NCBI GenBank assembly: GCA_037431425.1
Contig: GCA_037431425.1_4129.1
Length of the DNA: 64,000 nt
Strand: one strand, 5' to 3'
Origin: a phage
Shown: piece by piece, positions 3,452 to 64,000 of the stretch
How positions within the stretch are numbered: the first letter of the stretch is position 1
How the letters are laid out: the number at the start of each line of letters is the position of its first letter
Notes under the pieces: model-generated
Told to the model about the DNA's origin: nothing
Seen by the model: the letters and a program-made list of their open reading frames with translations, nothing else
Databases searched by the model: none
Position numbers and translations under genes: made by a program

Positions 3452-3480
3452 GGAAGACCCATTGGGTCTTCCTTGTCCTT
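3452..3480 (+). terminator. hairpin terminator after topoisomerase genes
   Basis: GGAAGACCC-att-GGGTCTTCC stem-loop followed by T-rich tract. Confidence 0.55.
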
Positions 3481-3482
3481 TA

Positions 3483-3490
3483 TATAAATA
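3483..3490 (+). promoter_or_regulatory. T4-type late promoter-like TATAAATA
   Basis: exact TATAAATA about 40 nt upstream of ATG 3529. Confidence 0.4.
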
Positions 3491-3528
3491 ATCAATAGAT
3501 AATGGTAGCTTGGCTATGGAGAATTACA

Positions 3529-5922
3529 ATGAGAACTTTTACCCCACGTTGGGATATAAAAGCCGATGCTCGATATATACAAGAAGGACAAGACATTCTT
3601 TTGCGTTTGAGTATCAACAAAAATAGCACAACGGATGCTAGTTATGTATTAAATGAAGATGAATACTTAGAGATGATTCTTACAATACAATGCTTGGATA
3701 GTTCAGGTACAGTATTTGAACCAGAATCGCATTATACTTTTTTTGTGGGTAATGATGAAAACAGTTTTATACCCATTTCTGAAGGAACTACTGGAAATAA
3801 ATTTGTAAATGGAAAACATAAATGTAAAATTAGTAAAACACAATTTAACTTATCAGGCAGTTCTAATAGTGAAGATGTATATTTTATAAAAATTCATTGT
3901 AAAAATGACGGGACATACAACAATACCGAAATTATCAATTTTTATTTACAGGCAGTAAATGTGATGTATTTTGGTAATATTTCACCGAGTGGTGAGTTGG
4001 GAACAACTGACGCATCAATAACATATGATAGTCAGGAAGTTTGGGTTACACCTGGTGTAGAGATTGGTGATGATAAAAAACCATACTGTATTGGAGATGT
4101 TGATTATGGTTCTAACAGTACATTATTTGTACAAGGATTTGGTAGAAGACGACCTTTTATATTAGGTACTGACATTACGGATGATATTACACCCCGCGTA
4201 TTTTTCCCAGCTTATAGATTGGTTGATATGGATATATCGGAAGTTCCGCAGAATCACATCACAAATGATTATGCCGTTTTTAAACCAGCCCAAACCGTAT
4301 GGCCTATTTCGGGTATAAACAAAGAAGTTAAAGTTAACATTCAAAACAAAAACGGAAGCACAATTGATACTGGAATGATTTTCAACCCAAATGGTCAATT
4401 ACTTCAAACATTTTTGTACGAATCTGAAGCATGTGACACATATTTTAAGGTTGAGATTGTAGACATTTTAAGTACTTATGTAGATGATAGTGAGAGATTT
4501 GCAATAAATCAACGTTACAAAGCATATCAAATGTGGGTATGCCCAGAAGACATAGACACTATATATTCAATCTCTGATAAACCATTACCAAATCATTTGT
4601 ACCAATTAAAAGATAATGTAGTTTATCCATATGTAATTACTGGTGAGTATGACGATGGTACACTTAAGCCGGTATATGATAGTAGTGATTGGCTAGATTT
4701 AGGTTATTACGATCCAACTCTTGGTGAAAATATCATTGGAATGCAAAAAATATTCAGGGTATTAGTTAATGCAGAAGAAGGGAATAACATAAACTTCATA
4801 ACTGAGAGTGACTTAGGAACCATTCATGTAGGGGAATACTTTGGGAATAGCGTCTATCCTAAGATAGAAACTGATAGTAAAAGTCAGGTTTCTTATATAT
4901 TAGATGGTGGTGATGATATTAGAAAATATGGAATGGACTTAACACCAGATGGTTATCTAGTAGGAACTGCATTTGCTAAAAGTATGGATTTTAGTGCTAA
5001 TGATGATATTAAACTTTCATTTTACGTTAAAGCATTCAGTTCTGACGGTGGTGAGGCAAAAAAATTATTTAATCTTAAAATCGTAAGAGGTTTTGGACAA
5101 AATTATTTAAGTGCACATGTTCTACCATCTGTTTCTTTTGAAAGAGATTGGTTTAAATGTATTAGTACTTCATCATTTACTAACCAATTATTTTTTCGTC
5201 AATCCGATGATAGATATGGTCTTCAAAAAGTACCAAAAATGCTATTGAAAGAAAATTTTCTAAGTCAAACGTACCCATACACTAATCTTTCTGATATTAA
5301 GAAAGTATTACGAAAGAGTATTGTTGATACAAATGGAACCACTATTCCGAATGGTAAATTTAAAATGGTAATGGGTAATTATAAATTGTTATCAGCACTT
5401 GACAATCAAGGAAATTTGCAATATGATTTATTGTACCGTGAAGTTTTACCTGAAGGTTCGTTGGTGTCAGTGTCCAAAAATCCACGTCAGTACACACAAA
5501 TTGACAACGGTCTACTGGGTGAACTGTTCGGCTTACGACAAAACATATTCAAAGCAATTGGTGAAGATACAACCAACTTGATCAAAGATCCTACAGATTT
5601 ACAAAACCGTGGTATGTATGTTGATGCTATACCTAGTGTTAGTGAAGAGATGCTTGATACTGTTCCTAGGTTTATGAATCACCCCTATATTGAAAATAAC
5701 CTACAGAAAAAATTCATGCCTATAATTCCAGTTGCATATTGTCTGCCAGGCAAAGGTGAAGCATTTTTCAACACTTTACTACAGAATAATGAACATGGTA
5801 CAATGGTCGGTCTAGAATTTGAAATTACATCGGTGGAGTTTGGGTATTTTTCACATGAATCAGATAATTATGTACCTGATACATTTGTAATTACATTACC
5901 AAACAATAACATAGGAGTTTAA
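3529..5922 (+). CDS. large hypothetical protein, possibly virion-associated (late-promoter context)
   Basis: 798 aa ORF from ATG 3529 with GGAGA RBS; track ORF starts 3502; Gly/Asn/Tyr-rich, no catalytic motif recognised. Confidence 0.6.
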   Translation: MRTFTPRWDIKADARYIQEGQDILLRLSINKNSTTDASYVLNEDEYLEMILTIQCLDSSGTVFEPESHYTFFVGNDENSFIPISEGTTGNKFVNGKHKCKISKTQFNLSGSSNSEDVYFIKIHCKNDGTYNNTEIINFYLQAVNVMYFGNISPSGELGTTDASITYDSQEVWVTPGVEIGDDKKPYCIGDVDYGSNSTLFVQGFGRRRPFILGTDITDDITPRVFFPAYRLVDMDISEVPQNHITNDYAVFKPAQTVWPISGINKEVKVNIQNKNGSTIDTGMIFNPNGQLLQTFLYESEACDTYFKVEIVDILSTYVDDSERFAINQRYKAYQMWVCPEDIDTIYSISDKPLPNHLYQLKDNVVYPYVITGEYDDGTLKPVYDSSDWLDLGYYDPTLGENIIGMQKIFRVLVNAEEGNNINFITESDLGTIHVGEYFGNSVYPKIETDSKSQVSYILDGGDDIRKYGMDLTPDGYLVGTAFAKSMDFSANDDIKLSFYVKAFSSDGGEAKKLFNLKIVRGFGQNYLSAHVLPSVSFERDWFKCISTSSFTNQLFFRQSDDRYGLQKVPKMLLKENFLSQTYPYTNLSDIKKVLRKSIVDTNGTTIPNGKFKMVMGNYKLLSALDNQGNLQYDLLYREVLPEGSLVSVSKNPRQYTQIDNGLLGELFGLRQNIFKAIGEDTTNLIKDPTDLQNRGMYVDAIPSVSEEMLDTVPRFMNHPYIENNLQKKFMPIIPVAYCLPGKGEAFFNTLLQNNEHGTMVGLEFEITSVEFGYFSHESDNYVPDTFVITLPNNNIGV

Positions 5923-8762: not shown

Positions 8763-9388
8763 TGAAGCCACGTTGTATTGTTTTTGATTGTGACGAAGTT
8801 CTATTGGACCACATCGGTATGCTTTCAGAGTATGTTAAACAAACTTATAACATAACCCCATCAACACCATATCCAACAGAATATGACCTATCAGATTGGT
8901 TGGGTGTTCCTCAAACTGAAGTTAAAAAAATTCTTGAACGTTTCAATCAACAATCGTATTTGTTTGGATTGTTAAAACCTGTTGAACCAAATACTGTTGA
9001 TATTGTTCAAGAATTACGTGACCGTTTTTATAAAGAAAAGTTTGTGGTTCTGACAAAATGTGGTAAGAAAGGATATGGTGAAGTTTTGCGTAATGTGAAT
9101 CTCATGCGAGAATTTGGTGAAAATTGTTTTGATGAGATCATCATCATTGAAATGGATGAATCAAAGAAAAAGGCATTGGAGGATTTACAAGATAAGTACG
9201 ATGTGAAATTGATGATTGATGATTATATCAACAACATTGAAACAGCATTGGAGCTTGGTATTCCTTCAGTTATGATGGGATGCTCACATAATACTGCATA
9301 CAGGAACAGTAGTGATTTTGAATATATCGAGAACTGGACCGAGCTTAGACTGAAAATTTATTCAGTTCTGGGTAAATATTATAAATAA
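8762..9388 (+). CDS. HAD-superfamily phosphatase (possible 5'-nucleotidase)
   Basis: N-terminal DxDxV motif FDCDEVLLD; start overlaps upstream stop (TAATG). Confidence 0.55.
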   Translation: MKPRCIVFDCDEVLLDHIGMLSEYVKQTYNITPSTPYPTEYDLSDWLGVPQTEVKKILERFNQQSYLFGLLKPVEPNTVDIVQELRDRFYKEKFVVLTKCGKKGYGEVLRNVNLMREFGENCFDEIIIIEMDESKKKALEDLQDKYDVKLMIDDYINNIETALELGIPSVMMGCSHNTAYRNSSDFEYIENWTELRLKIYSVLGKYYK

Positions 9389-36027: not shown

Positions 36028-36143
<116 letters not shown>

Positions 36144-36150
36144 CAAAAGA

Positions 36151-36224
36151 CGGGGTATAGCACAATTGGATAGTGCAAGAGAATTCTAATCTCTAGGTTG
36201 GGGGTTCAAGTCCCTCTACCTCGG
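36151..36224 (+). tRNA. tRNA-Arg (anticodon UCU)
   Basis: manual fold: acceptor CGGGGTA/TACCTCG, anticodon stem AGAGA/TCTCT, loop ATTCTAA, T-loop TTCAAGT. Confidence 0.75.
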
Positions 36225-36248
36225 CCTACTTCAATTAAAGGTTAAACC

Positions 36249-36413
36249 ATGACGCATGAAGAATGGATGAATGACATTAATTTTAGATATGCAGGTATCG
36301 GTAACTGGAGAAAGTATCATTGGGAAATCATATCAGACCCAGCAGAATACGATAAACTTATGAATCATGAAGTGTATCCGTGGTTCTTTATTGAAATAAT
36401 GGTACGATTATGA
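36249..36413 (+). CDS. MTHEEW-family small protein (54 aa), tandem copy 1
   Basis: not in track; MTHEEWMNDINFRYAGIG... Confidence 0.45.
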   Translation: MTHEEWMNDINFRYAGIGNWRKYHWEIISDPAEYDKLMNHEVYPWFFIEIMVRL

Positions 36414-36570
36414 CACATGAAGAATGGATGAATGACATTAATTTTAGATATTCGGGTATCGGTAAATGGCTAAAGTATCATTGGGAATTCATTTCAGAGC
36501 CACATCTGTATGATAAACTTATCAACGATTCTGCATATAAAATGTACTTAATTGAACTACTGGTACGAAC

Positions 36571-36574
<4 letters not shown>
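36410..36574 (+). CDS. MTHEEW-family small protein (54 aa), tandem copy 2
   Basis: MTHEEWMNDINFRYSGIG...; start overlaps upstream stop. Confidence 0.45.
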
Positions 36575-36743
<169 letters not shown>

Positions 36744-36747
36744 AATC

Positions 36748-37188
<441 letters not shown>

Positions 37189-37216
37189 GTATCTTAACAA
37201 CAGAAGGTATATTGAA

Positions 37217-37456
37217 ATGGGTAAGTATTTTGTGAGTTATAGTTATAATGTATCACGAAAGATTCCACGCGGTGACGGAATGGGATGGTCTTATGATGCA
37301 TATACTTTAAATGAGTCATGTATCATCGAATTACAAGAAAAAGACCTTGACATTTTAAAAATCAAACAATATATTCTTGATGTTGAATTGGCACATCGTA
37401 CTGATACCTATCCAGATGTAAACAACATCAGCATCTTAGTACTAACCAAAGTATAA
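37217..37456 (+). CDS. hypothetical protein
   Basis: ATG 37217 after AGAAGG RBS; track start 37187. Confidence 0.5.
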   Translation: MGKYFVSYSYNVSRKIPRGDGMGWSYDAYTLNESCIIELQEKDLDILKIKQYILDVELAHRTDTYPDVNNISILVLTKV

Positions 37457-37526
37457 GATAAAAAGAACTTTACTAAATAATTCCACTGGAGATTAATATG
37501 TTTAAAGATGAACGTCCAGATTTGTA

Positions 37527-37565
<39 letters not shown>

Positions 37566-37571
37566 GAATTC

Positions 37572-37925
37572 CACAATCAGACGTATATGGTGTAAGTTAC
37601 GTCGATGCTATCCAGAACAAGATCTCTGGTACTCTAGGAAGTGGTGAATGTTAACCTAGACGGGTTTGATAATTGGACGATAGGCAATTATTACTTGACT
37701 AGCAGGTTGAAACTAGAGGTGACAGTCCTTCACCAAACTGGAAAGCCGGATGGACTTTTATTTAAAAGGGTAAGGCGTGGAAATATGTTTACTGTAGTTG
37801 CTTTTAGTAGCCTGTACGCCCCACGTCAAGGTAGTCGAAAGGCAAGTTAAAACGGGTGGTTATAAAGCTGAATTAACAGCGGCGTTTAAAAGCGTCACCA
37901 TCCATTTTTTTAATTAAAGTTGGCT
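37572..37925 (+). ncRNA. candidate structured noncoding RNA (unclassified)
   Basis: noticeably more GC-rich than flanks; only a poor 69-codon ORF; directly downstream of consensus promoter; inside tRNA cluster. Confidence 0.3.
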
Positions 37926-37927
37926 AT

Positions 37928-38295
<368 letters not shown>

Positions 38296-38305
<10 letters not shown>

Positions 38306-38324
38306 TATTCAGTACTGATATAAT
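38296..38324 (+). promoter_or_regulatory. sigma70-type promoter (TGGACA-17-TATAAT) for tRNA-Ser
   Basis: -10 ends 6 nt before tRNA 5' end; spacer contains TTCAGTACTG. Confidence 0.55.
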
Positions 38325-38330
38325 TAATTT

Positions 38331-38417
<87 letters not shown>

Positions 38418-38429
38418 TAAATTGTTCCA

Positions 38430-38516
<87 letters not shown>

Positions 38517-38566
38517 CTGATATTGTTATTATATGAGTTCTAACGATAATGAAACACTAGGAACAT

Positions 38567-38737
<171 letters not shown>

Positions 38738-38761
38738 ACGAAATTACAATAGGAAATTAAA

Positions 38762-38947
38762 ATGCAACTTTTAATTCTTTCAATATTGTATATTATTATA
38801 ATGGTTCCGATATCAATACGTTTAATTACAGTTGAACGATTTTTATCGAAACATGGAAATAGATCTATGATATTTGTACCAATCGGGTTGATATTGTTTG
38901 GTATATTTTCATTTATAATGGGAATTAACGCTACATTCATTTCATAG
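38762..38947 (+). CDS. small membrane protein
   Basis: 61 aa, two hydrophobic helices; RBS AGGAAA. Confidence 0.5.
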   Translation: MQLLILSILYIIIMVPISIRLITVERFLSKHGNRSMIFVPIGLILFGIFSFIMGINATFIS

Positions 38948-38956
38948 GAAACAAAT

Positions 38957-39214
<258 letters not shown>

Positions 39215-39316
39215 ATAAAAAGAACGAAAAGTAGACGGTCGTATTCAGTACTGAATCACCAGGGGAGGTTGTGATTCCCGATTCAGTAGCTTAAAAGCAG
39301 ACCCGTATGTGCCTAA

Positions 39317-39369
<53 letters not shown>

Positions 39370-39370
39370 T

Positions 39371-39416
<46 letters not shown>

Positions 39417-39417
39417 T

Positions 39418-39551
<134 letters not shown>

Positions 39552-39553
39552 TA

Positions 39554-39737
<184 letters not shown>

Positions 39738-39817
39738 TAAATAATACAGTAAGATGGCCTCCCCTCCATATCATGAGAGTATAGAGACTTGTTGGTTATC
39801 TTACTTTTAAACAAACT

Positions 39818-39891
39818 GCCTCAATAGCAAAATTGGTAATGCACACGTTTTGTAAGCGTGAGATTTTTCCGTTCGAGTCGGAATTGGGGCA
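39818..39891 (+). tRNA. tRNA-Thr (anticodon UGU)
   Basis: manual fold: acceptor GCCTCAA/TTGGGGC (one GU), anticodon stem CACGT/GCGTG, loop TTTGTAA, T-arm TTCCG-TTCGAGT-CGGAA; variable loop 6 nt (slightly atypical). Confidence 0.65.
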
Positions 39892-39908
39892 CAAAATAAA
39901 GGCACACT

Positions 39909-43892: not shown

Positions 43893-44678
43893 ATGAACAA
43901 CATTTTCTTCAAAACTATTTCTTTCAAAAAAGAATCTTACTCATATTCCTATGTTGATGGTAATGTGCTTAATATTGTTCTGAATGGGGTAGATGTTCCT
44001 GTGAAATTCGACTCACATGAAGAAGCAGTCGATGGGGCAAAAGAATTGAATTCAATTCTCAATGGTGAAGATAGTCAAAAACAAAAGGTAAAATCCGATT
44101 TAGATGCACTTTTGGAAAAAATCAAAAGTGGTGAAGTTCTTGAAATTTTAGAAAACTGTAATGAAAAACTACGTAAAGTAGTCAATGATGTTCATGACCA
44201 GATTCAAGAAAAAGCACTAGACCAAGCCTTTAAACATGTATCTAAAAAAGCTGAATCACGTATTGATAATATGGTCAAAAACATTGATGATGTACTTTCA
44301 CATCTCTTTACCAAAGAATACGAATGTAACACAGACGAGCCAGTTACTGAATCTAAAAAAGAAAAACGCAACTTTGGTTCAAGTGATGATGTATTTGGTT
44401 TTTCTAATGTACGAACAAGTGCAGATGAACCAAAGGAAATCAGTGAGATGCTCATTGGTGACATGACAACAAAACAACTTCGTAATGAAATTGACAAGTT
44501 TGTTACTACATCTATCAAATCTGAACGTGCACAAAATATGTTCAAAAGTATCAGTGCTAATTTTGGTACTGAAGCCACCGAACAAGCACTAAATGCATTT
44601 AAAGAATTGATTTATAATGTTGCCATTCGCAATCCAGAAAAAACACTCGAAGAAGTCCTACGAGAAAATTTCAAATAA
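43893..44678 (+). CDS. hypothetical coiled-coil protein
   Basis: 261 aa; RBS AAGGAG. Confidence 0.6.
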   Translation: MNNIFFKTISFKKESYSYSYVDGNVLNIVLNGVDVPVKFDSHEEAVDGAKELNSILNGEDSQKQKVKSDLDALLEKIKSGEVLEILENCNEKLRKVVNDVHDQIQEKALDQAFKHVSKKAESRIDNMVKNIDDVLSHLFTKEYECNTDEPVTESKKEKRNFGSSDDVFGFSNVRTSADEPKEISEMLIGDMTTKQLRNEIDKFVTTSIKSERAQNMFKSISANFGTEATEQALNAFKELIYNVAIRNPEKTLEEVLRENFK

Positions 44679-44690
44679 TTAGATAAAAGT

Positions 44691-44720
44691 AAAGCCACTA
44701 CTTTCGTAGTGGCTTTTTTA
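44691..44720. terminator. bidirectional intrinsic terminator between convergent genes
   Basis: AAAGCCACTAC-tttc-GTAGTGGCTTT with T-runs on both sides. Confidence 0.7.
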
Positions 44721-45875
44721 TTATGCGTTATAACCAACAATAACGACAGTACAATCAATTGGATTTACTACTTTAACAGTTACGTTATCATCTTCATCAA
44801 ACTGTATTTCGCTATGAACTACCTGTTTGGTTGAAGAATACAATTGAACTTGTGGTAATACTTTACCATGTTCAGTAACTGGAATAGATAGTGAATACAT
44901 AGAGTCTTCATCTTCTACCCAATCACTCTCCACATATTCCTTATGGAATGGGGTGGTGTGTAGTGTTTTGCCCATAATACGCAAAGACACAGGCGAATTA
45001 TCGCTTTGGTTCACTGTAATATCACCTTTATCATCAACAGACATATCAACACCTATTTGGTGTAAATCATCGCTATATGCTTGGAGAACTAATTTATTAC
45101 CACGTTTATGAACATCATATGGTACGACCGCAGAAAAAACTCCATCACCTGATGGTTGGAATTGCGTCAATTGAACCGGAGTAACATAATCAACATCCTC
45201 GCCGTGTTCTTGAACATCAAATTCAACAACTTTAGTGTTATAATATGGGGAAGTTAATGTGGCAGTACCTTTGCCTTTTTGTTGAATAGCATCTACTTGA
45301 ATCGTAAACTCATCATCAACAATTTGTTTAGTGACGTATTCTTTCCCTTCTGGTAATACAAATTTAATTTCCATGCCATTGGTATCAATTTCAGAACCAG
45401 CATTGAATAGTTTACCACTAATTGATTTATCACCAACAAATACTGGTGAAATAATAATATTATCAATATCCCTATCAATAATACTACATTCTGGGGTATA
45501 CATATTATAAAGAGATTTTGAATTTCCTAAAATAGTTTTGTGTAGTAGGAATTTATAAACAAATCCAGTATCTGCCTCTTGCTGCTCATTAGTGTGTCCA
45601 CGAACAAAGAAACTGTTTCTATTAATTTCACTTAATAGTTCATCATTAGATTTACTATAATTTAGCAGATAACCTTTATTATCTTTAGTTGTTAGTTGGA
45701 CTTTACGGTAAATTATATTAGTTCTTGGGTCAACCAAATCATATAATTTGTGACTTCTCTGACGATAGATTCTAATATTTTTAAGTTTAGTTCCGTCATT
45801 AAGTATCGCTCCATCAACGACATAACCACATTCGCCAAACTTGTATCTACCTGCTGACGCTATAGACCTTGACAT
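44721..45875 (-). CDS. hypothetical protein (only confident minus-strand gene)
   Basis: 384 aa ORF; protein-like composition; flanked by terminator and AT-rich divergent promoter region. Confidence 0.65.
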   Translation of the reverse strand: MSRSIASAGRYKFGECGYVVDGAILNDGTKLKNIRIYRQRSHKLYDLVDPRTNIIYRKVQLTTKDNKGYLLNYSKSNDELLSEINRNSFFVRGHTNEQQEADTGFVYKFLLHKTILGNSKSLYNMYTPECSIIDRDIDNIIISPVFVGDKSISGKLFNAGSEIDTNGMEIKFVLPEGKEYVTKQIVDDEFTIQVDAIQQKGKGTATLTSPYYNTKVVEFDVQEHGEDVDYVTPVQLTQFQPSGDGVFSAVVPYDVHKRGNKLVLQAYSDDLHQIGVDMSVDDKGDITVNQSDNSPVSLRIMGKTLHTTPFHKEYVESDWVEDEDSMYSLSIPVTEHGKVLPQVQLYSSTKQVVHSEIQFDEDDNVTVKVVNPIDCTVVIVGYNA

Positions 45876-45933
45876 TTATCCTTCCTTTGTTATAATTATT
45901 ATAACATATTTATTGTATAGATTAAAAAAATGA

Positions 45934-58842: not shown

Positions 58843-59220
58843 ATGCTCAATTCTATTGTGATTTGGTTTTTAAGTATTCCAATTATTTTATCTTTTGTAA
58901 TTTCTATTTGTATGATTTTATATTTTATTTTTGCTGGGGTGTATTTTATTTTTACAAACAAAGATATTTTTATTTCTAAACTTGATTCTATATTTGCTTG
59001 TGAGTCGTTAGCTTATAATTTGTGGATAATTTGTTCTTGTATCATGGGTATGGCATTCCTACTACACGAATTTAATGTCATTGATGATAATGTTGTATAT
59101 ATTAGTACTGGGTTAGCATTATATCCAGCTACATGGTACTTGATTTATGTTGTCGATATATGGTATAGTACTTACAAAGAATACCAGTGTAAAAAGTCAT
59201 CAAAAGTTGAGAGGAAATGA
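58843..59220 (+). CDS. integral membrane protein
   Basis: 125 aa, about 4 TM. Confidence 0.55.
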   Translation: MLNSIVIWFLSIPIILSFVISICMILYFIFAGVYFIFTNKDIFISKLDSIFACESLAYNLWIICSCIMGMAFLLHEFNVIDDNVVYISTGLALYPATWYLIYVVDIWYSTYKEYQCKKSSKVERK

Positions 59221-59573
59221 TTATGAAAATTATCTTGTTTTTTGTATCTATGTTAGTTTGTGGTTTAGTGTCAGCAGAACCGTTGGAAGGTGTTGTTTGT
59301 ACAGATGGAAATACCAAACACACATATCAAGGTGATAGCTATGACCGCGATATCGTTTATATTGATGGTCAACAATACAGCTTTGTTAAAGAACATACCA
59401 TTGGTGACATTAGTTTTACTGAGTTCGCGAAAGATGAGAATCCGAAGGAATTGGCATTTATTGAAGTTGATTTGTATGAAGACAGTAATGGCTCTCAATA
59501 TGCTAAACTTGTATTGATGCGTCGTGGTGCAAAAGAAACAAGTTTTGGTGGTTTATGTAAATACAAGGACTAA
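59217..59573 (+). CDS. secreted protein (signal peptide)
   Basis: 118 aa; signal peptide ...GLVSA-EP. Confidence 0.55.
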   Translation: MIMKIILFFVSMLVCGLVSAEPLEGVVCTDGNTKHTYQGDSYDRDIVYIDGQQYSFVKEHTIGDISFTEFAKDENPKELAFIEVDLYEDSNGSQYAKLVLMRRGAKETSFGGLCKYKD

Positions 59574-59578
59574 ATTTT

Positions 59579-59770
59579 ATGTTGATTTATCAATGTGACG
59601 GTATTCGTGTTCTACAACATCCTTATCTTCAAATCTTTCATGTTCAGATGTTTATGGAAGGTGATAATCCGAGAACTTATGAACGCACATATGATTATTT
59701 CACGGTCAAAGAGTGCGACAACATCGATGAAGTACGACGATTAGTACATGAACTCCAAAACAAAGGTTGA
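59579..59770 (+). CDS. hypothetical protein
   Basis: 63 aa; stop codon inside terminator stem. Confidence 0.5.
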   Translation: MLIYQCDGIRVLQHPYLQIFHVQMFMEGDNPRTYERTYDYFTVKECDNIDEVRRLVHELQNKG

Positions 59771-59790
59771 CTTCGGTCAGCCTTTTTTGT
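59762..59790 (+). terminator. intrinsic terminator with UUCG tetraloop (copy 1 of 3)
   Basis: AAAGGTTGAC-TTCG-GTCAGCCTTTTTTGTT. Confidence 0.85.
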
Positions 59791-59824
59791 TATAATTATT
59801 TTATATTCTAATGGAGTTTAAATT

Positions 59825-60265
59825 ATGTTAGTATATCGTTTTGAACTTAAATTTAGTTACATTGAACCTGATTTGAAACCAGCAACAAATGTTGGTCCAT
59901 TTGCACGGTATTCTTCAAAATATAGTACTAAAAATGGTTTTGACCGTTTGTATATGTCTACGCCTACGCAGTTCCAACCTGAACCAACTGATGATGGGAT
60001 CTATTCAATCAAATATGGATGGGCATTTGGCTGTCAAAGTTTGAATGATTTGTTTCGGTTCTTTACTATGGACTTGGGTAAATTACATCGTGCTGGGTTT
60101 GCTATTTCCGTATATGACGTACCTGATAATCACGTTGATATTGGACGAAACCAGGTTCAGTTCCATTATAGGAGTGCAACTTTGGTTCGTATTATGTCTA
60201 TTAAGGAAGCAAAGGATGAGTACCGCCATAGTAAAAGAATAATACATGAGGCTGTATATGGATAA
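59825..60265 (+). CDS. hypothetical protein
   Basis: 146 aa; RBS AATGGAG. Confidence 0.55.
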   Translation: MLVYRFELKFSYIEPDLKPATNVGPFARYSSKYSTKNGFDRLYMSTPTQFQPEPTDDGIYSIKYGWAFGCQSLNDLFRFFTMDLGKLHRAGFAISVYDVPDNHVDIGRNQVQFHYRSATLVRIMSIKEAKDEYRHSKRIIHEAVYG

Positions 60266-60602
60266 GACTCAAATAGAATTAAAAAAATTTGTATCGTTCT
60301 ATCTACCAAATGATCCACGTAATTCACAAAAAGATTTTGAATATTATAATATCCTAAGTAAACAGTTAATGAGAAAGTTTCAACAGTGTTTAAGTATATT
60401 CAATACTGATGGTAGACGTAGATACCGAATCATTTCAATGAATGATGAAAACGCAAACTACTTTGATTATGATGTTGTTTTTAGAGCATATAATGATGAC
60501 CGAATTAAATTAAATTATGATCAAATAATATTTGATCTAAGTGCTATATCTGTTATAATTACTCACATCGCCGAGATTAATGGTTTTAAAGAGTGGTATT
60601 GA
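60258..60602 (+). CDS. hypothetical protein
   Basis: ATG 60258 after GAGG RBS; track start 60246. Confidence 0.5.
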   Translation: MDKTQIELKKFVSFYLPNDPRNSQKDFEYYNILSKQLMRKFQQCLSIFNTDGRRRYRIISMNDENANYFDYDVVFRAYNDDRIKLNYDQIIFDLSAISVIITHIAEINGFKEWY

Positions 60603-60616
60603 ATAGAGGACAATAT

Positions 60617-60883
60617 ATGAAGCTTAAATTGCAATATAATGGATTTACTTTACGTAATGATACTGAGTTTGTCAATCGTTCACCTGGTGCTGAACTTTTT
60701 TTGCGAGAGATGAACATTCCTTTCATCATCACTACTGTAGGAGATCGTGAAGTTTTACAATACGCAGAGCATCCTATTATTGATGTTCCTTGGTACTCTG
60801 AACATATGTACATGGATATGGCACGTCGCTACAACTGTAAGTTCATAGTAGAAGGTGATAAAATTACAGTACAATTTAAATGA
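60617..60883 (+). CDS. hypothetical protein
   Basis: ATG 60617 after AGAGGA RBS; track start 60593. Confidence 0.5.
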   Translation: MKLKLQYNGFTLRNDTEFVNRSPGAELFLREMNIPFIITTVGDREVLQYAEHPIIDVPWYSEHMYMDMARRYNCKFIVEGDKITVQFK

Positions 60884-60952
60884 TGTGAATTGAAATGATC
60901 ATTTAAGCATCATTGTAAATGTAGAAATGGTGTACATGAAGTATAATATAAA

Positions 60953-60983
60953 AAGGGAAATCATATATGGTTTCCCCTTTTTC
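60953..60983 (+). terminator. putative intrinsic terminator
   Basis: GGGAAA...TTTCCC hairpin followed by CTTTTTC. Confidence 0.5.
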
Positions 60984-61024
60984 TTATTACGTACAATTAA
61001 GGACATATATTAATTGAGGAAATT

Positions 61025-61597
61025 ATGAATCGTAAAGGTCGTTTTAAGGTATCAAAGAAGAACAAAAGTTCTAGATTTAAGCCTATAGTTTTAACCGTTA
61101 AAGCCAAAGCGGAATTAACTGCACTTAGTAAAAAGATCATTTCATCTAAGATTAAAGTATCATACGTAAATTCGGTAAAATATCGAAAGGTTAAACCACA
61201 AGACCTACTCATTTCACTTATATTTGAACGTAATGATTTTGAGATATCAGTGGATGATTATAGAGCCTATAATGCTGGTTTCATTAATGTTACTTGTACT
61301 ACAGAACTAACTGAATTAGAACATTTGTCATGTATAGTAAATCTCGATAAAGGTGTAGTGAAATACCACTTTGTACATTTTACTAATATTAATGATGGAA
61401 AGGGTGTACAATCCAGAACTATAGTACCTACATGTGATGTGACTAAATTATCAAAGCTCAATGACGAAGAATATTTTCAAGAAAGTACTGTAACTGAATA
61501 TATAGATGAAATTATAGCAACTTACAAAGAATGTATATGGGTTTTAAATGCAATGAAGCCTAAATTATGTTTGATGAATATTGTACGTGATTTATGA
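61025..61597 (+). CDS. CtFQ-family small protein
   Basis: 190 aa; motif DEEYFQESTVTEY; RBS GAGGAAA. Confidence 0.6.
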   Translation: MNRKGRFKVSKKNKSSRFKPIVLTVKAKAELTALSKKIISSKIKVSYVNSVKYRKVKPQDLLISLIFERNDFEISVDDYRAYNAGFINVTCTTELTELEHLSCIVNLDKGVVKYHFVHFTNINDGKGVQSRTIVPTCDVTKLSKLNDEEYFQESTVTEYIDEIIATYKECIWVLNAMKPKLCLMNIVRDL

Positions 61598-61610
61598 ATA
61601 AGGAATTGAA

Positions 61611-62054
61611 ATGTGTTGGGTAAATGTAAACAGTATTGAGCTTAATGAAAAAGATATTTTTGCATTTGTAAATTTAACAAATAATACAGTTCTAAAAGGT
61701 CGATTGTTCAGTTCCAGCACTGGTGAAAAATGGATTTCATTGATGAATGATTGTGGTGAGATTTATAATGTGATGTCGTTACCACAATGGGTCTATAGTA
61801 ACACTGCGGATGATGTTCTTGCAGCAGTTATGCGTGAGTTTGAAAAACTTCCCGGTGGTGATATCAAAAACAAAGTTTTTAATGCCGAGCGTAAAAATTA
61901 TACAGCACAGCAATTAGAATCACTCGCTATTGCTGCATATCAAGCTGCTATTAAGAAGCCAGAATGTGTTATTCTTAAGTATATTCCAGACTTAAAACTC
62001 ACATTGGAAGATATGGATGCATTCATTTTTACATCTGAACTTGAACAGTACTGA
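61611..62054 (+). CDS. hypothetical protein
   Basis: 147 aa; RBS AAGGAA. Confidence 0.55.
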   Translation: MCWVNVNSIELNEKDIFAFVNLTNNTVLKGRLFSSSTGEKWISLMNDCGEIYNVMSLPQWVYSNTADDVLAAVMREFEKLPGGDIKNKVFNAERKNYTAQQLESLAIAAYQAAIKKPECVILKYIPDLKLTLEDMDAFIFTSELEQY

Positions 62055-62124
62055 TTTAACTTTGGGACAAACCTTCCTATAATGATATAATTTTTTTGTC
62101 AGTTTATTTAAATGACATATGAAA

Positions 62125-62132
62125 TATAAATA
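62125..62132 (+). promoter_or_regulatory. T4-type late promoter-like TATAAATA
   Basis: exact TATAAATA 36 nt upstream of ATG 62168. Confidence 0.4.
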
Positions 62133-62167
62133 TTATTGTAAAGTTTATCTCTTATAGGAGTTATAAA

Positions 62168-62551
62168 ATGGTTGATAAATGGAATAAGAAAGAACCATCT
62201 CATGATGTGGATATTTCTGACCTAGATAATGAACATAAACACAAGTACCTAGATTCACTAGGACTACTAAAGCCGGACCAAAGTATTGCACATGATCGTC
62301 CTTCACGTGAAAAAGCATTCAGTCTGGAATCTCTAGGTCATGAGCTAAATCGTGTGTTTGAAGAACACCCAATCTATGTACGTGATATTATTGAGAAACT
62401 TAAAGTAACTCCTAAAGAGCACTTTAAAGCAACTGTACACTCTGCATTCAATGCATTACATGAAGCACTTAAGAAAACTCACAACCTTCGTAAGATTCAT
62501 GATGATATTGTAAATGCAATTGAAAGTGAAAAGCATAAGTTCAAAAAGTAA
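62168..62551 (+). CDS. hypothetical basic protein, paralogue of N-terminal region of 62616 protein
   Basis: 127 aa; shared YLDSLGLLKPDQ / YVNSLGLLNATQ and IEKLKVTPKEHFKATVHSAFNAL / VKELQSVPKEELKVKAQAVLDAM segments; RBS TAGGAG. Confidence 0.6.
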   Translation: MVDKWNKKEPSHDVDISDLDNEHKHKYLDSLGLLKPDQSIAHDRPSREKAFSLESLGHELNRVFEEHPIYVRDIIEKLKVTPKEHFKATVHSAFNALHEALKKTHNLRKIHDDIVNAIESEKHKFKK

Positions 62552-62552
62552 T

Positions 62553-62582
62553 AGAAAGGGTTGACTTCGGTCAGCCTTTTTT
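62553..62582 (+). terminator. intrinsic terminator with UUCG tetraloop (copy 2 of 3)
   Basis: GGTTGAC-TTCG-GTCAGCC followed by TTTTTTT. Confidence 0.85.
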
Positions 62583-62589
62583 TATATAC

Positions 62590-62597
62590 TATAAATA
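62590..62597 (+). promoter_or_regulatory. T4-type late promoter-like TATAAATA
   Basis: exact TATAAATA 19 nt upstream of ATG 62616. Confidence 0.4.
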
Positions 62598-62615
62598 TAA
62601 TCATAGAGAAAAAAC

Positions 62616-63887
62616 ATGAAATCTATGGAGAGAAATCAAATGCCAAGTAATTTTACTGATAAAAATGGTGGTAACATGGCAGGTCACTCGGATAAATGGA
62701 GTGAACGCAACCGCCGCCCAAATAGTTACCAAGCAGGCCAAGGTTCCCGTGGCTCCAGAAACCAAGGAACGGGACTTGCTGGCAAGGCAAACGCAGAAGC
62801 AGGTGAAGTTAAGAGTACTGAGAACATGACTGAGCTAGAAAAGCTACGTTATGTTAATTCATTAGGACTTCTTAATGCTACACAAAAACAACGTCTAGCT
62901 GATATGGAACGCGAAGAAAAAGAAAAAACAACTACTAAAGAAGAATCAAAACAGGAAGCACCGAAGCCGTCTAACCCTGTCAAAGAACTGTCTGATAAGT
63001 TAGGTAAGATCTTTGCAAATAAACCCCAACTTATTCAAGGTATTGTCAAAGAATTACAATCTGTACCTAAAGAAGAATTAAAAGTCAAAGCACAAGCTGT
63101 TCTGGATGCAATGAAAGGAAATACCAGTACTGAACCAACTGAAGTGTTCAGTACTATTATGCGTGCACTGGAAGGTAAACAACAAGGTGAAGAACGTGGT
63201 GATGAAGTAAGTCTTGAACGTATTCTTAAAACATTTGATAGTATTGGGAAAGAAGATCGTGTTAATGCACAACAGGTTAAAAATGTTCTAGCAAAATTGG
63301 AAAACCGTCTAGAAGGTAAAGATGATAAGATTAAATTGGTATCTGATGTAGTTGACAATGCACTTAAATCTTATGTACAAGGTGAAAAGAGTCGTTTTGT
63401 GACCGCGATGGATGCAGCATTCAATACTATGAAAAAGTACGAAGCTGACCATGGTGAGAAGGTTACACCTGATGGTTATCTGATGCGTGATGATGAAGAA
63501 GGTGCAGTAGAACAGAATGATGTTCATTCTGACGAAGATATTGATGACATGGAAGCTGAACTGTCACAAGATCGCCAAATGACTGAAAAATCACACAACG
63601 AACTAAAGAAATTAATGCAGTGGGTCGCTGATGTTGGAGAAAAAGCGGGTGCTGATAAGAAAAGTATAAACCGAAATCTTAGTTGGATTAAAGATAAAGT
63701 AGGTAACAACGCTCGCAAACTACAAAAAGCATGGACTGATGTAGTGAATGGTGCAGTAGATATTGACGTTGAATCTGGTGAAGCATATGATTATGCATTG
63801 ACTACACTTGATGATTCTTTTCGTGACTACGAAAAAGGAAACGTGACTCCTTGGGAAAAGGACATAATGAGCAAATACGGCAAATGA
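62616..63887 (+). CDS. hypothetical highly charged protein (possible late/virion internal protein)
   Basis: 423 aa, K/E/D-rich; N-terminal region paralogous to 62168 product. Confidence 0.6.
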   Translation: MKSMERNQMPSNFTDKNGGNMAGHSDKWSERNRRPNSYQAGQGSRGSRNQGTGLAGKANAEAGEVKSTENMTELEKLRYVNSLGLLNATQKQRLADMEREEKEKTTTKEESKQEAPKPSNPVKELSDKLGKIFANKPQLIQGIVKELQSVPKEELKVKAQAVLDAMKGNTSTEPTEVFSTIMRALEGKQQGEERGDEVSLERILKTFDSIGKEDRVNAQQVKNVLAKLENRLEGKDDKIKLVSDVVDNALKSYVQGEKSRFVTAMDAAFNTMKKYEADHGEKVTPDGYLMRDDEEGAVEQNDVHSDEDIDDMEAELSQDRQMTEKSHNELKKLMQWVADVGEKAGADKKSINRNLSWIKDKVGNNARKLQKAWTDVVNGAVDIDVESGEAYDYALTTLDDSFRDYEKGNVTPWEKDIMSKYGK

Positions 63888-63892
63888 TAACA

Positions 63893-63922
63893 AAAAGGTT
63901 GACTTCGGTCAGCCTTTTTTGT
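63893..63922 (+). terminator. intrinsic terminator with UUCG tetraloop (copy 3 of 3)
   Basis: AAAAAGGTTGAC-TTCG-GTCAGCCTTTTTTGTT. Confidence 0.85.
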
Positions 63923-64000
63923 TATGATAGTGCTATCCACTATTGAGGCCAGAGAGATGACAAAGCAAGAAATATTCAAAACTTTAATTGACATATTACG

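What the first reader, a model, noticed from the sequence alone, without database searches (positions are those of the whole stretch)
59579..63922. Late module: TATAAATA promoters, three identical UUCG-tetraloop terminators and paralogous charged proteins
The exact terminator GGTTGAC-TTCG-GTCAGCC-T(6-7) occurs at 59762, 62553 and 63893, each closing a transcription unit; the last two units start with exact TATAAATA (T4 late promoter consensus) and encode proteins sharing an N-terminal region (YLDSLGLL / YVNSLGLL). The arrangement resembles internal-head-protein-type genes that share a targeting sequence, but that assignment is speculative.
Basis: partly seen in the sequence, partly recalled or inferred. 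Interest (0 to 1): 0.45.

Follow-up and report, generated by a model that had tools for sequence, protein, structure and literature searches.

The report
Terminator-promoter cassettes flanking virion-protein genes
The three identical "terminators" are copies of a known kind of phage regulatory cassette that joins a terminator hairpin to an early promoter, and they bracket two related virion-protein genes of a jumbo coliphage that also carry T4-style late promoters; this is tidy but largely ordinary.

Summary
The window comes from an Asteriusvirus (RaK2-like) jumbo coliphage. The 18-mer GGTTGACTTCGGTCAGCC occurs exactly three times (59765, 62559, 63897). TATAAATA precedes both charged-protein genes, and the two proteins are paralogues.

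The hairpin is half of a composite cassette. Its 5' arm is a -35 box (TTGACT), and a -10 box lies 17-18 nt further on. This holds for 73% of 93 copies from many phages, against 2.5% of control positions. The same cassette occurs in KVP40-like T4-type Vibrio phages, where such elements were described as PeSLs.

As with PeSLs, indels between close relatives break exactly inside the cassette. 121Q and phAPEC6 carry gp200 and gp202-204 between pairs of cassettes; this window has one merged copy at each site. The middle copy carries TATAAATA overlapping its -10 box.

Orthologues of both proteins were found in virions by mass spectrometry (phAPEC6 gp037c and gp035c; CBB_38), so "late virion proteins" is supported. 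The internal-head-protein idea is untested: there is no N-terminal T4-type targeting peptide, no fold match and no known location in the virion. The first unit is early-type, not late.

Verdict: a new member of a known kind, of modest interest.

The parts
59579..59770 (+). 63-aa ORFan (PHROG 6957). Its TGA stop codon lies inside the -35/hairpin arm of cassette copy 1. It is an early-type gene, not part of a late unit.
   Evidence: homologues in T4-like, rV5-like and T7-like phages
59762..59796 (+). Cassette copy 1. Hairpin 59765-59782 (stem GGTTGAC/GTCAGCC, loop TTCG), T-run 59783-59788, and an overlapping sigma-70 promoter: TTGACT 59767-59772, 18-nt spacer, TG-T-TATAAT 59788-59796.
   Evidence: 11/12 match with TG; -14.4 kcal/mol
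59825..60883 (+). Three small ORFs (59825-60265, 60258-60602, 60617-60883) of unknown function, placed to be driven by the promoter of cassette copy 1.
60955..60985 (+). A different, non-cassette terminator hairpin (GGGAAATCA/TGGTTTCCC) with T-run. 121Q and phAPEC6 carry two extra genes (gp195-196) at this place.
61025..62054 (+). Two ORFs of unknown function (61025-61597, 190 aa; 61611-62054, 147 aa). No terminator separates them from the small virion-protein gene.
62062..62091 (+). Conserved sigma-70-like promoter (TTGGGA, 18 nt, TATAAT, with TG) upstream of the late promoter of the small virion-protein gene.
62125..62132 (+). TATAAATA, a T4-type late promoter motif 35 nt before the start codon; invariant in five Asteriusvirus genomes.
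62168..62551 (+). Small paralogue, 127 aa, 14.9 kDa, pI 7.2, 36% charged residues. Orthologue of phAPEC6 gp037c and 121Q gp199 (virion protein by MS). PHROG 16530.
   Evidence: PMC7247149 Table 1
62553..62597 (+). Cassette copy 2. Hairpin 62559-62576, T-run 62577-62583, TTGACT 62561-62566, 18-nt spacer, TATACT 62585-62590, overlapped by the late promoter TATAAATA 62590-62597. It is a merged copy where 121Q and phAPEC6 have two cassettes flanking gp200.
62640..63887 (+). Large paralogue, 415 aa, 46.5 kDa, pI 5.3 (the ORF opens at 62616; the conserved start MP... is at 62640 with SD GGAGAG). Orthologue of phAPEC6 gp035c and 121Q gp201 (virion protein by MS). PHROG 20398. Conserved N-terminal ~180 aa, variable all-alpha C-terminal modules.
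   Evidence: PMC7247149 Table 1
63893..63928 (+). Cassette copy 3. Hairpin 63897-63914, T-run 63915-63920, TTGACT 63899-63904, 18-nt spacer, TG-T-TATGAT 63920-63928. It is a merged copy where 121Q and phAPEC6 have two cassettes flanking gp202-204.
63957..64000 (+). Start of the T7 gp0.7-like protein kinase gene (runs off the window), placed to be driven by the promoter of cassette copy 3.

Best explanation
The window is part of an Asteriusvirus (RaK2-like) jumbo coliphage. The thrice-repeated element is a compact bifunctional regulatory cassette of the PeSL kind (promoter-early stem-loop). Read as RNA from upstream, A-tract, GGUUGAC-UUCG-GUCAGCC and U-run form an intrinsic terminator with a C(UUCG)G tetraloop, which stops incoming transcription. 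Read as DNA, the 5' arm of the same hairpin supplies the -35 hexamer TTGACT, and the sequence after the T-run supplies an (often extended) -10 box 17-18 nt downstream. Host sigma-70 RNA polymerase therefore starts a new transcript just past the hairpin, and that transcript lacks the hairpin and is not terminated by it. Copies 1 and 3 insulate and restart early transcription, into three small ORFs and into the gp0.7-like kinase. In copy 2 a T4-type late promoter, TATAAATA, overlaps the -10 region, and a second TATAAATA precedes the upstream gene. The two bracketed genes, paralogous charged all-alpha proteins that are virion components, are therefore boosted late in infection, presumably by a gp55-like phage sigma factor. 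Because the copies are near-identical direct repeats, they also act as substrates for homologous recombination. This lineage has lost (or its relatives have gained) gp200 and gp202-204 by exchange within cassette pairs. Shown here: sequence anatomy, RNA folding, promoter geometry across 93 copies, indel breakpoints, paralogy. Shown by others: virion presence of the orthologues. Inferred: actual termination, promoter timing, direction of the indels, role of the proteins.
For: Identity of the phage: 97.1% identity to Escherichia phage ph0011 and 82-91% to other Asteriusvirus genomes.

Terminator half: three exact copies against 0.01 expected. RNA folds of -14.4 to -17.6 kcal/mol on the + strand against -9.8 on the - strand. 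A compensatory stem variant, GATTGAC/GTCAGTC, occurs in 121Q.

Promoter half: TTGACT, 18 nt, then TATAAT (with TG), TATACT or TATGAT (with TG) at the three copies. Among 93 distinct copies from the fetched loci, 73% have a -10 hexamer matching at least 5 of 6 at spacer 16-18, against 2.5% of 20,000 control positions. 68 of the 93 have TG at -15/-14, and the consensus is AAAAAAAG-GGTTGACTTCGGTCAGCC-cTTTTt.taaTat. Different annotators have labelled the same element 'terminator' (UE-S1, G17, GAP32, Muenster) or '-35/-10 signal' (fHe-Yen9-03).

Kinship with PeSLs: the same 18-mer cassette occurs in KVP40-like Vibrio phage VH7D, the group whose PeSLs have stems A3-4G3-loop-C3T3-4 and promoters TTGYVH-N17-TAWWAT (PMC4122927).

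Recombination: window 62546-62587 aligns to both sides of the gp200 insert, and window 63874-63920 aligns to both sides of the gp202-204 insert, in 121Q and phAPEC6.

Late promoters: the octamer is depleted in the window. The three conserved intergenic + strand sites (3483, 62125, 62590) all precede orthologues of MS-detected virion proteins (gp158c, gp037c, gp035c). A gp55-like sigma factor and an ATAAATA motif before 35 structural genes are reported for CBB and GAP32 (PMC5259590).

Virion proteins: PMC7247149 Table 1 and PMC5259590 Table 4.
Against: There are no transcript data for any Asteriusvirus, so termination efficiency, sigma-70 promoter activity and timing are all inferred. The -10 of copy 2 (TATACT, no TG) is weaker, so its early activity is doubtful. 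The stem is nearly the only way to embed TTGAC in a GC-closed hairpin, so identity across distant phages could be convergence rather than common descent or transfer. The cassette loci were retrieved by exact match to the TTCG version, so loop statistics are biased. I did not confirm a gp55 homologue in this phage itself; a tblastn with T4 gp55 gave no listed Asteriusvirus hit among the rows shown. One TATAAATA (9380) is not conserved in phAPEC6, which shows that the octamer alone is not proof of a promoter.
Confidence: 0.75

Rival explanations
1. One reading: a dedicated late module of three transcription units closed by identical terminators. The two paralogues would be internal-head (T4 IP-like or phiKZ inner-body-like) proteins that share a capsid-targeting sequence and are packaged into the head and perhaps injected.
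For: Both proteins are virion components in relatives. phAPEC6 has an inner body whose proteins are unidentified (PMC7247149). The family has a conserved N-terminal ~180-aa module followed by highly variable C-terminal modules, a pattern expected for 'address plus cargo'. Like T4 ip genes, the genes sit among early genes, with their own late promoters and shuffling-prone flanks (PMC4122927 links PeSL-type shuffling to the T4 IP locus). The invariant motif recurs as tandem repeats in podovirus proteins encoded between tail genes and a giant LPD38 polyvalent protein.
Against: The first unit is not late. The shared motif is internal, not an N-terminal ~10-residue CTS. No (L/I)-x-E site is invariant: the best candidate, VKE at residue 116, is VKV in two homologues. 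The large protein is acidic overall (pI 5.3). There is no fold or sequence match to any known internal or ejection protein. MS shows only presence in virions, not location.
Confidence: 0.2
2. The three hairpins are simply convergent 'optimal' intrinsic terminators, or 3'-end mRNA-stabilising C(UUCG)G hairpins as in T4, with no promoter or recombination role. On this view the TTGAC inside them is coincidental.
For: C(UUCG)G hairpins are exceptionally stable and were first noted in T4 intercistronic regions (established knowledge: Tuerk et al. 1988). All three lie right after stop codons and fold well.
Against: Coincidence does not explain a -10 box at fixed 17-18 nt spacing in 73-89% of 93 copies against 2.5-10% of controls, nor TG in 68 of 93, nor the upstream A-tract that resembles an UP element. 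Loops vary (TTCG, GNRA types, TAAG, TTAG) while the TTGAC-bearing stem stays fixed. Indel breakpoints fall inside the element. The other 15 terminators in the window all use different stems.
Confidence: 0.1
3. The repeats are copies of a small autonomous or non-autonomous mobile element (MITE-like or homing-associated) that happens to contain a hairpin.
For: There are multiple near-identical copies per genome (4-10 by blastn), spread over many phage genera, and they are associated with presence or absence of neighbouring genes.
Against: The conserved unit is only ~35-45 nt and shows no terminal inverted repeats beyond the hairpin itself and no target-site duplications. No transposase or homing endonuclease lies nearby. 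All copies are co-oriented with transcription and sit between a stop codon and an SD/start codon, as regulatory elements do.
Confidence: 0.03

Closest known systems
PeSLs (promoter-early stem-loops) of T4-type phages RB49/phi1, PST/T4 and nt-1/KVP40 (Arbiol et al. 2010, PMC2839356; Comeau et al. 2014, PMC4122927)
   Same: An intergenic composite of AT-rich tract, sigma-70-like promoter and stable stem-loop terminator, followed by SD and start codon. It is repeated in regions of small non-essential genes, and indels between close relatives are bounded by copies. The very same 18-mer cassette is present in a KVP40-like phage (VH7D), and the stem fits the nt-1 consensus A3-4G3-loop-C3T3-4.
   Different: The host genome is a ~350-kb RaK2-like jumbo phage, not a member of the T4-like subfamily. 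Here the -35 hexamer is itself the 5' arm of the hairpin, whereas in RB49/phi1 the stem-loop usually lies between -35 and -10 or over -10, and in PST it lies upstream of the promoter. One copy carries a late promoter overlapping its -10 box and serves a virion-protein gene, whereas PeSLs were reported as rare in structural regions. Promoter and terminator activity and mini-circle formation are untested here.
T4 late promoters (TATAAATA, read by gp55 with gp33 and the gp45 clamp) and the ATAAATA late motif predicted for CBB and GAP32 (PMC5259590)
   Same: An exact TATAAATA octamer with no -35 element, 35-42 nt before the start codons of virion-protein genes, conserved among relatives; the octamer is depleted elsewhere in the window.
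   Different: RaK2-like phages reportedly have a gp55-like sigma factor but no detectable gp33 or gp45 homologues (PMC5259590), so the activation mechanism may differ. Nothing has been mapped experimentally.
T4 intercistronic C(UUCG)G hairpins / intrinsic terminators
   Same: A C(UUCG)G tetraloop on a short GC-closed stem followed by a U-run, immediately 3' of coding regions.
   Different: Here the stem sequence is fixed by a second function (the -35 box). It keeps a conserved G.U wobble, which weakens the antisense hairpin and removes TTGAC from the opposite strand (inference).
T4 internal proteins (IPI-III, Alt) with the capsid-targeting sequence; phiKZ inner-body protein paralogues
   Same: Small to medium charged proteins present in virions, encoded away from the main head-gene cluster among early genes, paralogous, with variable gene content at the locus.
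   Different: No N-terminal CTS-like decapeptide ending in (L/I)-x-E, no demonstrated processing, no sequence or fold similarity, and virion location unknown.

Membership tests
PeSL (promoter-early stem-loop cassette) | Sigma-70-like -35 and -10 boxes about 17 nt apart | tested here: met
   TTGACT, 18 nt, then TATAAT, TATACT or TATGAT at the three copies. 73% of 93 copies have a -10 matching at least 5 of 6 at spacer 16-18, against 2.5% of controls.
PeSL (promoter-early stem-loop cassette) | AT-rich tract upstream of the -35 box | tested here: met
   Consensus AAAAAAAG directly 5' of the stem. The window copies have AACAAA, AGAAAG and ACAAAAA.
PeSL (promoter-early stem-loop cassette) | Stable stem-loop adjacent to or overlapping the promoter, able to terminate upstream transcription | tested here: inconclusive
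   Structure and U-run are present, with dG of -14.4 to -17.6 kcal/mol. Actual termination was not measurable here.
PeSL (promoter-early stem-loop cassette) | Intergenic, followed by SD and the start codon of the next gene; all copies co-oriented with transcription | tested here: met
   nearly all copies lie between a stop codon and an SD/ATG 30-60 nt downstream.
PeSL (promoter-early stem-loop cassette) | Many copies per genome, clustered in regions of small variable genes | tested here: met
   3 copies in 4.2 kb and none in the other ~60 kb of the window. 4-10 places per RaK2-like genome. 5 exact copies within 14 kb of 121Q (L029).
PeSL (promoter-early stem-loop cassette) | Indels or replacements between close relatives bounded by cassette copies | tested here: met
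   gp200 and gp202-204 of 121Q and phAPEC6 each lie between two cassettes; the window has one merged copy at each site.
PeSL (promoter-early stem-loop cassette) | Demonstrated promoter and terminator activity and mini-circle formation | not testable with these tools
   Needs reporter fusions and inverse PCR, as in PMC2839356.
T4-type late promoter | TATAAATA at about -10, with no -35 requirement, upstream of late (virion) genes | tested here: met
   Sites 62125 and 62590 (also 3483) are conserved and precede orthologues of MS-detected virion proteins.
T4-type late promoter | Phage gp55-type sigma factor encoded by the same genome | not tested
   Reported for the relative CBB (CBB_244; PMC5259590). 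Not located in this phage. The rows shown for tblastn with T4 gp55 included no Asteriusvirus record.
T4-type late promoter | Transcripts that start 6-8 nt downstream of the octamer late in infection | not testable with these tools
   I found no transcriptome for an Asteriusvirus.
T4 internal proteins (CTS-targeted) | N-terminal ~10-residue capsid-targeting sequence ending in (L/I)-x-E, removed by the prohead protease | tested here: not met
   The N-termini are MPSNFTDKNGG... and MVDKWNKKE.... The shared motif starts 26 and 70 residues in, and no invariant (L/I/V)-x-E site follows it.
T4 internal proteins (CTS-targeted) | Presence in the mature virion | tested here: met
   By orthology to MS-detected phAPEC6 gp035c and gp037c and to CBB_38. 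Not measured for this phage.
T4 internal proteins (CTS-targeted) | Location inside the head and ejection with the DNA | not testable with these tools
   No localisation data exist. AF2 and Foldseek were uninformative.
phiKZ-type inner-body proteins | Sequence or fold relationship to phiKZ gp89-gp97 family proteins, with processing at S/A/G-x-E | tested here: not met
   No such matches in PHROGs, Pfam, BFVD or PDB. The phAPEC6 authors also report that no phAPEC6 protein is similar to phiKZ inner-body proteins.

The most novel reading that the evidence does not exclude
The conserved N-terminal module of this protein family would be a packaging address: a basic disordered head with DKW, then the invariant K-x-x-Y-x-x-SLGLL helix, then a three-helix domain. 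It would load interchangeable C-terminal cargo domains into the jumbo-phage head (inner body or ejected proteins). The flanking terminator-promoter cassettes would be the recombination handles that let these cargo genes be duplicated, swapped and re-wired from early to late expression. This would be a RaK2-group counterpart of the polymorphic T4 internal-protein locus, and would identify components of the unassigned phAPEC6 inner body.
Probability: 0.15. Interest if true: 0.6.

Novelty: new member of a known kind. Interest (0 to 1): 0.3.

Why it matters
The result extends the PeSL concept (composite terminator/early-promoter cassettes that double as recombination handles) from T4-type phages to the RaK2-like jumbo phages. 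There the two halves have been annotated separately as 'terminator' or as 'promoter'. It also shows a particularly compact form in which the hairpin arm is itself the -35 box, and one copy in which a late promoter overlaps the -10 box. For annotation, these ~45-nt elements mark operon boundaries, early transcription starts and likely indel hot-spots in ~350-kb genomes that are 80% unannotated. For phage engineering they are natural insulated insertion sites. The two bracketed proteins belong to a narrow family (28 clusters at 50% identity among 1.84 billion proteins) of confirmed virion components of unknown role. That makes them reasonable candidates when looking for the unidentified inner-body or ejected proteins of these phages.

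Tried and rejected
- Pfam and PHROGs scans of all eight ORFs in the stretch gave only 'virion structural protein' or unknown-function families.
- The AlphaFold2 model of the large protein (pLDDT 71.6, pTM 0.31) is all-alpha and multi-domain. Foldseek against PDB found nothing with E <= 0.001, and against BFVD only members of the protein's own family.
- PDB sequence and profile searches found nothing.
- The phAPEC6 annotation 'chromosome segregation protein / SMC' for gp035c is rejected as a coiled-coil or compositional artefact; no family search here supports it.
- I searched for a T4-type prohead-protease site. Several (L/I/V)-x-E triplets exist, but none is invariant in the family alignment.
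- phAPEC6 supplementary peptide lists, which could have shown N-terminal processing, are not held.
- A tblastn with T4 gp55, intended to find the late sigma factor in Asteriusvirus genomes, returned 2008 records, but none of the rows shown was a RaK2-like phage, so it is inconclusive.
- A literature search for Asteriusvirus transcriptomes found nothing useful.
- The built-in terminator scan lists only copy 1 of the three. This is an artefact of greedy A-T stem extension eating into the T-run; my own scan finds all three.
- Rfam at gathering threshold finds only six tRNAs in the window.
- TATAAATA at 9380 was considered as a fourth late promoter and dropped, because it overlaps a stop codon, precedes a hairpin and is not conserved in phAPEC6.
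- A mobile-element (MITE or homing) reading was considered and rejected; see the rival explanations.

Full report
**What the window is.** Window 59000-64000 is 97.1% identical to Escherichia phage ph0011 and 82-91% identical to about 35 other ~350-kb coliphages of the genus Asteriusvirus (121Q, PBECO4, phAPEC6, UE-S1 and others). These belong to the RaK2-like jumbo myoviruses (annotations). All genes in the stretch lie on the + strand.

**Checking the observation.** The 18-mer GGTTGACTTCGGTCAGCC occurs exactly at 59765, 62559 and 63897 and nowhere else in the 64 kb, even with three mismatches allowed; 0.01 matches are expected by chance.
- Each copy is preceded by an A-tract and followed by 6-7 T.
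- As RNA, the copies fold into a 7-bp stem with a C(UUCG)G tetraloop, extended by A-U pairs, at -14.4, -15.8 and -17.6 kcal/mol. The opposite strand folds at only -9.8 kcal/mol, because the conserved G.U wobble becomes a C-A mismatch there.
- My own scan finds 18 terminator-like hairpins on the + strand of the window. The other 15 all have different stems, and none of them has a TTCG loop.
- TATAAATA lies at 62125 and 62590. The octamer is under-represented in the window (6 found against 12.8 expected).
- Both sites are invariant in ph0011, UE-S1, 121Q and phAPEC6.
- The two downstream proteins are paralogues.

The large protein starts at 62640 (MP...), as in every homologue, not at 62616. The first 'unit' has no late promoter.

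**What the repeated element really is.** The promoter scan showed that the hairpin's 5' arm is itself a -35 hexamer, TTGACT, and that a -10 box follows 18 nt later. The -10 box is TG-T-TATAAT after copy 1 (11 of 12 matches), TG-T-TATGAT after copy 3, and TATACT after copy 2.

To see whether this is general, I collected the exact 18-mer from IMG/VR (39 loci) and from annotated relatives.
- In 93 distinct copies of GGTTGAC-N4-GTCA(A/G)CC the consensus is AAAAAAAG-GGTTGACTTCGGTCAGCC-cTTTTt.taaTat.
- 73% of copies have a -10 hexamer matching at least 5 of 6 at spacer 16-18, against 2.5% of 20,000 control positions.
- 89% of copies match at least 4 of 6, against 10% of controls.
- 68 of the 93 copies have TG at -15/-14.
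- Loops vary (TTCG, GNRA types, TAAG, TTAG, TCCG) while the stem stays fixed, and one compensatory stem variant (GATTGAC/GTCAGTC) exists. Loop frequencies are biased by the way the loci were retrieved.

The element is thus a composite. It terminates incoming transcripts and carries a sigma-70 promoter whose own transcripts start beyond the hairpin. Annotators of related genomes have labelled the same element 'terminator' (UE-S1, G17, GAP32, Muenster) or '-35/-10 signals' (fHe-Yen9-03).

**Comparison with what is known.** This is the architecture described as PeSLs, promoter-early stem-loops. They were described in the T4-type phages RB49/phi1 (PMC2839356) and later in PST/T4 and nt-1/KVP40 (PMC4122927).
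- In those phages promoter and terminator activity were shown with reporters.
- Recombination between copies was shown to excise mini-circles and to explain indels between close relatives.
- The nt-1/KVP40 consensus (stem A3-4G3-loop-C3T3-4, promoter TTGYVH-N17-TAWWAT) fits the present cassette.
- The identical 18-mer cassette is present in the KVP40-like Vibrio phage VH7D, next to rIIA/rIIB.
- A blastn of the 34-nt core finds 4-10 places per genome in RaK2-like phages of Escherichia, Klebsiella, Salmonella, Cronobacter, Pectobacterium, Erwinia, Serratia and Yersinia, and in 56 Vibrio phage records.
- In the searchable library I found no paper that applies the PeSL concept to RaK2-like phages. 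The CBB paper lists RpoD-like promoters with UP elements and, separately, 74 terminators.

**Recombination signature.** Pairwise alignment of the window with 121Q and phAPEC6 shows two indels whose edges are duplicated in the alignment.
- Window 62546-62587 (cassette copy 2) matches both sides of a 141-bp insert that holds gp200, a 38-aa hydrophobic peptide.
- Window 63874-63920 (cassette copy 3) matches both sides of a ~1-kb insert that holds gp202-204.
- Reading the sequences confirms that 121Q and phAPEC6 have two cassettes at each site. At the first site these are a TAAG-loop variant plus the exact copy carrying TATAAATA. At the second they are an exact or GTCAACC variant plus an exact copy in front of the kinase.
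- The window, ph0011 and UE-S1 have a single hybrid copy at each site, with the left flank of the first cassette and the right flank of the second.

This is the PeSL deletion/insertion pattern. The direction (deletion here rather than insertion there) is inferred from the majority state among relatives.

**The late promoters and the proteins.** Three TATAAATA sites in the window are intergenic, on the + strand and conserved in phAPEC6: 3483, 62125 and 62590.
- They lie 35-42 nt before the orthologues of phAPEC6 gp158c, gp037c and gp035c.
- All three proteins are in the phAPEC6 virion proteome: gp158c with 9 peptides, gp037c with 5 peptides and 48% coverage, and gp035c with 8 peptides and 28.8% coverage (PMC7247149 Table 1).
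- With about 7 virion-protein genes among about 119 + strand ORFs, three out of three by chance is about 1e-4 (my arithmetic).
- A fourth site (9380) is not conserved and was dropped.
- For the related phages CBB and GAP32, a gp55-like sigma factor and an ATAAATA motif before 35 structural genes have been reported, but no gp33 or gp45 homologues (PMC5259590).
- Both genes also have conserved sigma-70-like promoters: TTGGGA-18-TATAAT at 62062-62091 and the cassette promoter of copy 2. Expression may therefore be early plus late. In the more distant relative PA5oct, some structural genes lie in an early-transcribed region (PMC7318152).

**The protein family.** The family is narrow, with 28 clusters at 50% identity among 1.84 billion representatives.
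- In Mimasvirus, Eneladusvirus and related genera there is a single ~170-aa member. These include CBB gp038 (= CBB_38, detected in virions with 9 peptides and 56.6% coverage), GAP32_032, BF gp027 and fHe-Yen9-04 g015.
- In Asteriusvirus the gene is duplicated. One copy is short and lacks the Gly/Asn/Arg-rich N-terminal segment. The other is long and carries the conserved ~180-aa N-terminal module followed by C-terminal helical modules that differ even among close relatives.
- The AlphaFold2 model is all-alpha, with a disordered basic N-terminus and three helical domains joined by linkers (pLDDT 71.6, pTM 0.31).
- It has no informative structural or sequence neighbours.
- The invariant motif recurs as 6-8 tandem repeats in 641-aa and 801-aa proteins of ~44-kb podovirus-like contigs. 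There the gene lies after the adaptor and tail genes and before a 2849-aa LPD38 polyvalent protein. That position is compatible with internal or ejected proteins, but this is only a lead.

**The internal-protein idea.**
- In favour: virion presence, paralogy, location among early genes with their own late promoters, a shuffling-prone locus (the PeSL authors themselves point to the T4 IP locus), a conserved N-terminal module with variable C-terminal domains, and an unassigned inner body in phAPEC6.
- Against: no N-terminal CTS-like peptide, no invariant (L/I/V)-x-E site, an acidic overall charge for the large protein, no similarity to T4 IPs or phiKZ inner-body proteins, and no localisation data.

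I rate this reading at about 0.15-0.2.

**Verdict.** The sequence features are real and far beyond chance. The best explanation is a known type of regulatory and recombination cassette, here in a jumbo-phage lineage and in an especially compact form. It brackets two paralogous genes for known virion proteins that carry T4-type late promoters. This is a new member of a known kind. Interest is modest, resting on the late promoter that overlaps the -10 box of one cassette copy and on the unknown role of the virion proteins.

Noticed in passing
window 36057-39892 (+): A cluster of six tRNA genes (Ser-tga, Arg-tct, Ser-gct, Met-cat, Asn-gtt, Thr-tgt). ATAAATA-type motifs lie 40 nt before tRNA-Ser (36010) and 75 nt before tRNA-Thr (39737).
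   Followed up: partly
window 3452-3529 (+): A hairpin (GGAAGACCC-att-GGGTCTTCC) is followed by TATAAATA (3483), 38 nt before the 797-aa orthologue of phAPEC6 gp158c, a virion protein by MS. The gene lies directly after the topoisomerase II genes. It shows the same 'terminator then late promoter' layout as cassette copy 2, and it is conserved in phAPEC6.
   Followed up: partly
window 43893-45913: Convergent orthologues (assigned by size and gene order) of the virion proteins gp078c (43893-44678, +) and gp077 (45875-44721, -) share a bidirectional hairpin at 44694-44713. AATAAATA lies 38 nt upstream of the minus-strand gene.
   Followed up: partly
window 62098-62118 (+): An inverted repeat, TGTCA-N11-TGACA, lies between the conserved sigma-70-like promoter and TATAAATA of the small virion-protein gene. 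The arms are conserved in 121Q and phAPEC6 while the loop differs. It could be a regulator site or a small leader hairpin.
   Followed up: no
P0086, P0087; L049 8001-10406: The family's invariant motif (K/R)Y.NSLGLL(D/N)A...QR occurs as 6-8 tandem ~40-aa repeats in 641-aa and 801-aa proteins of ~44-kb podovirus-like metagenomic contigs. The gene sits after the major capsid, SU10-type adaptor and tail genes and before a 2849-aa LPD38 polyvalent protein.
   Followed up: partly
window 59579-59770 (+): This 63-aa ORFan has homologues in very different phage groups: Krischvirus T4-likes, rV5-likes, T7-likes (next to the DNA ligase gene), Campylobacter phages and a Klebsiella phage. Its TGA stop codon is part of the TTGAC -35 box and hairpin arm.
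   Followed up: partly
window 60884-61008: 121Q and phAPEC6 carry two extra genes here (gp195, gp196; 552 bp against 107 bp). The window keeps what looks like a remnant of the gp195 start (ATGATCA...GTAGAAATGGT) followed by a non-cassette terminator.
   Followed up: partly
L044 (CBB) 1900-2000; L045 (GAP32); L047 (BF): The single-copy orthologue in these genera is preceded by TTGACA-18-TATAAT. A CCCCTAA...TTAGGGG hairpin plus T-run encloses the -10 box. This is a different, RB49-style PeSL geometry, located in the terminal repeat / early region.
   Followed up: no
P0072 (256 aa, metagenomic homologue): A family member in which the helical domain typical of the small paralogue is tandemly duplicated after the conserved N-terminal module. 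This is further evidence that the family evolves by module shuffling.
   Followed up: no
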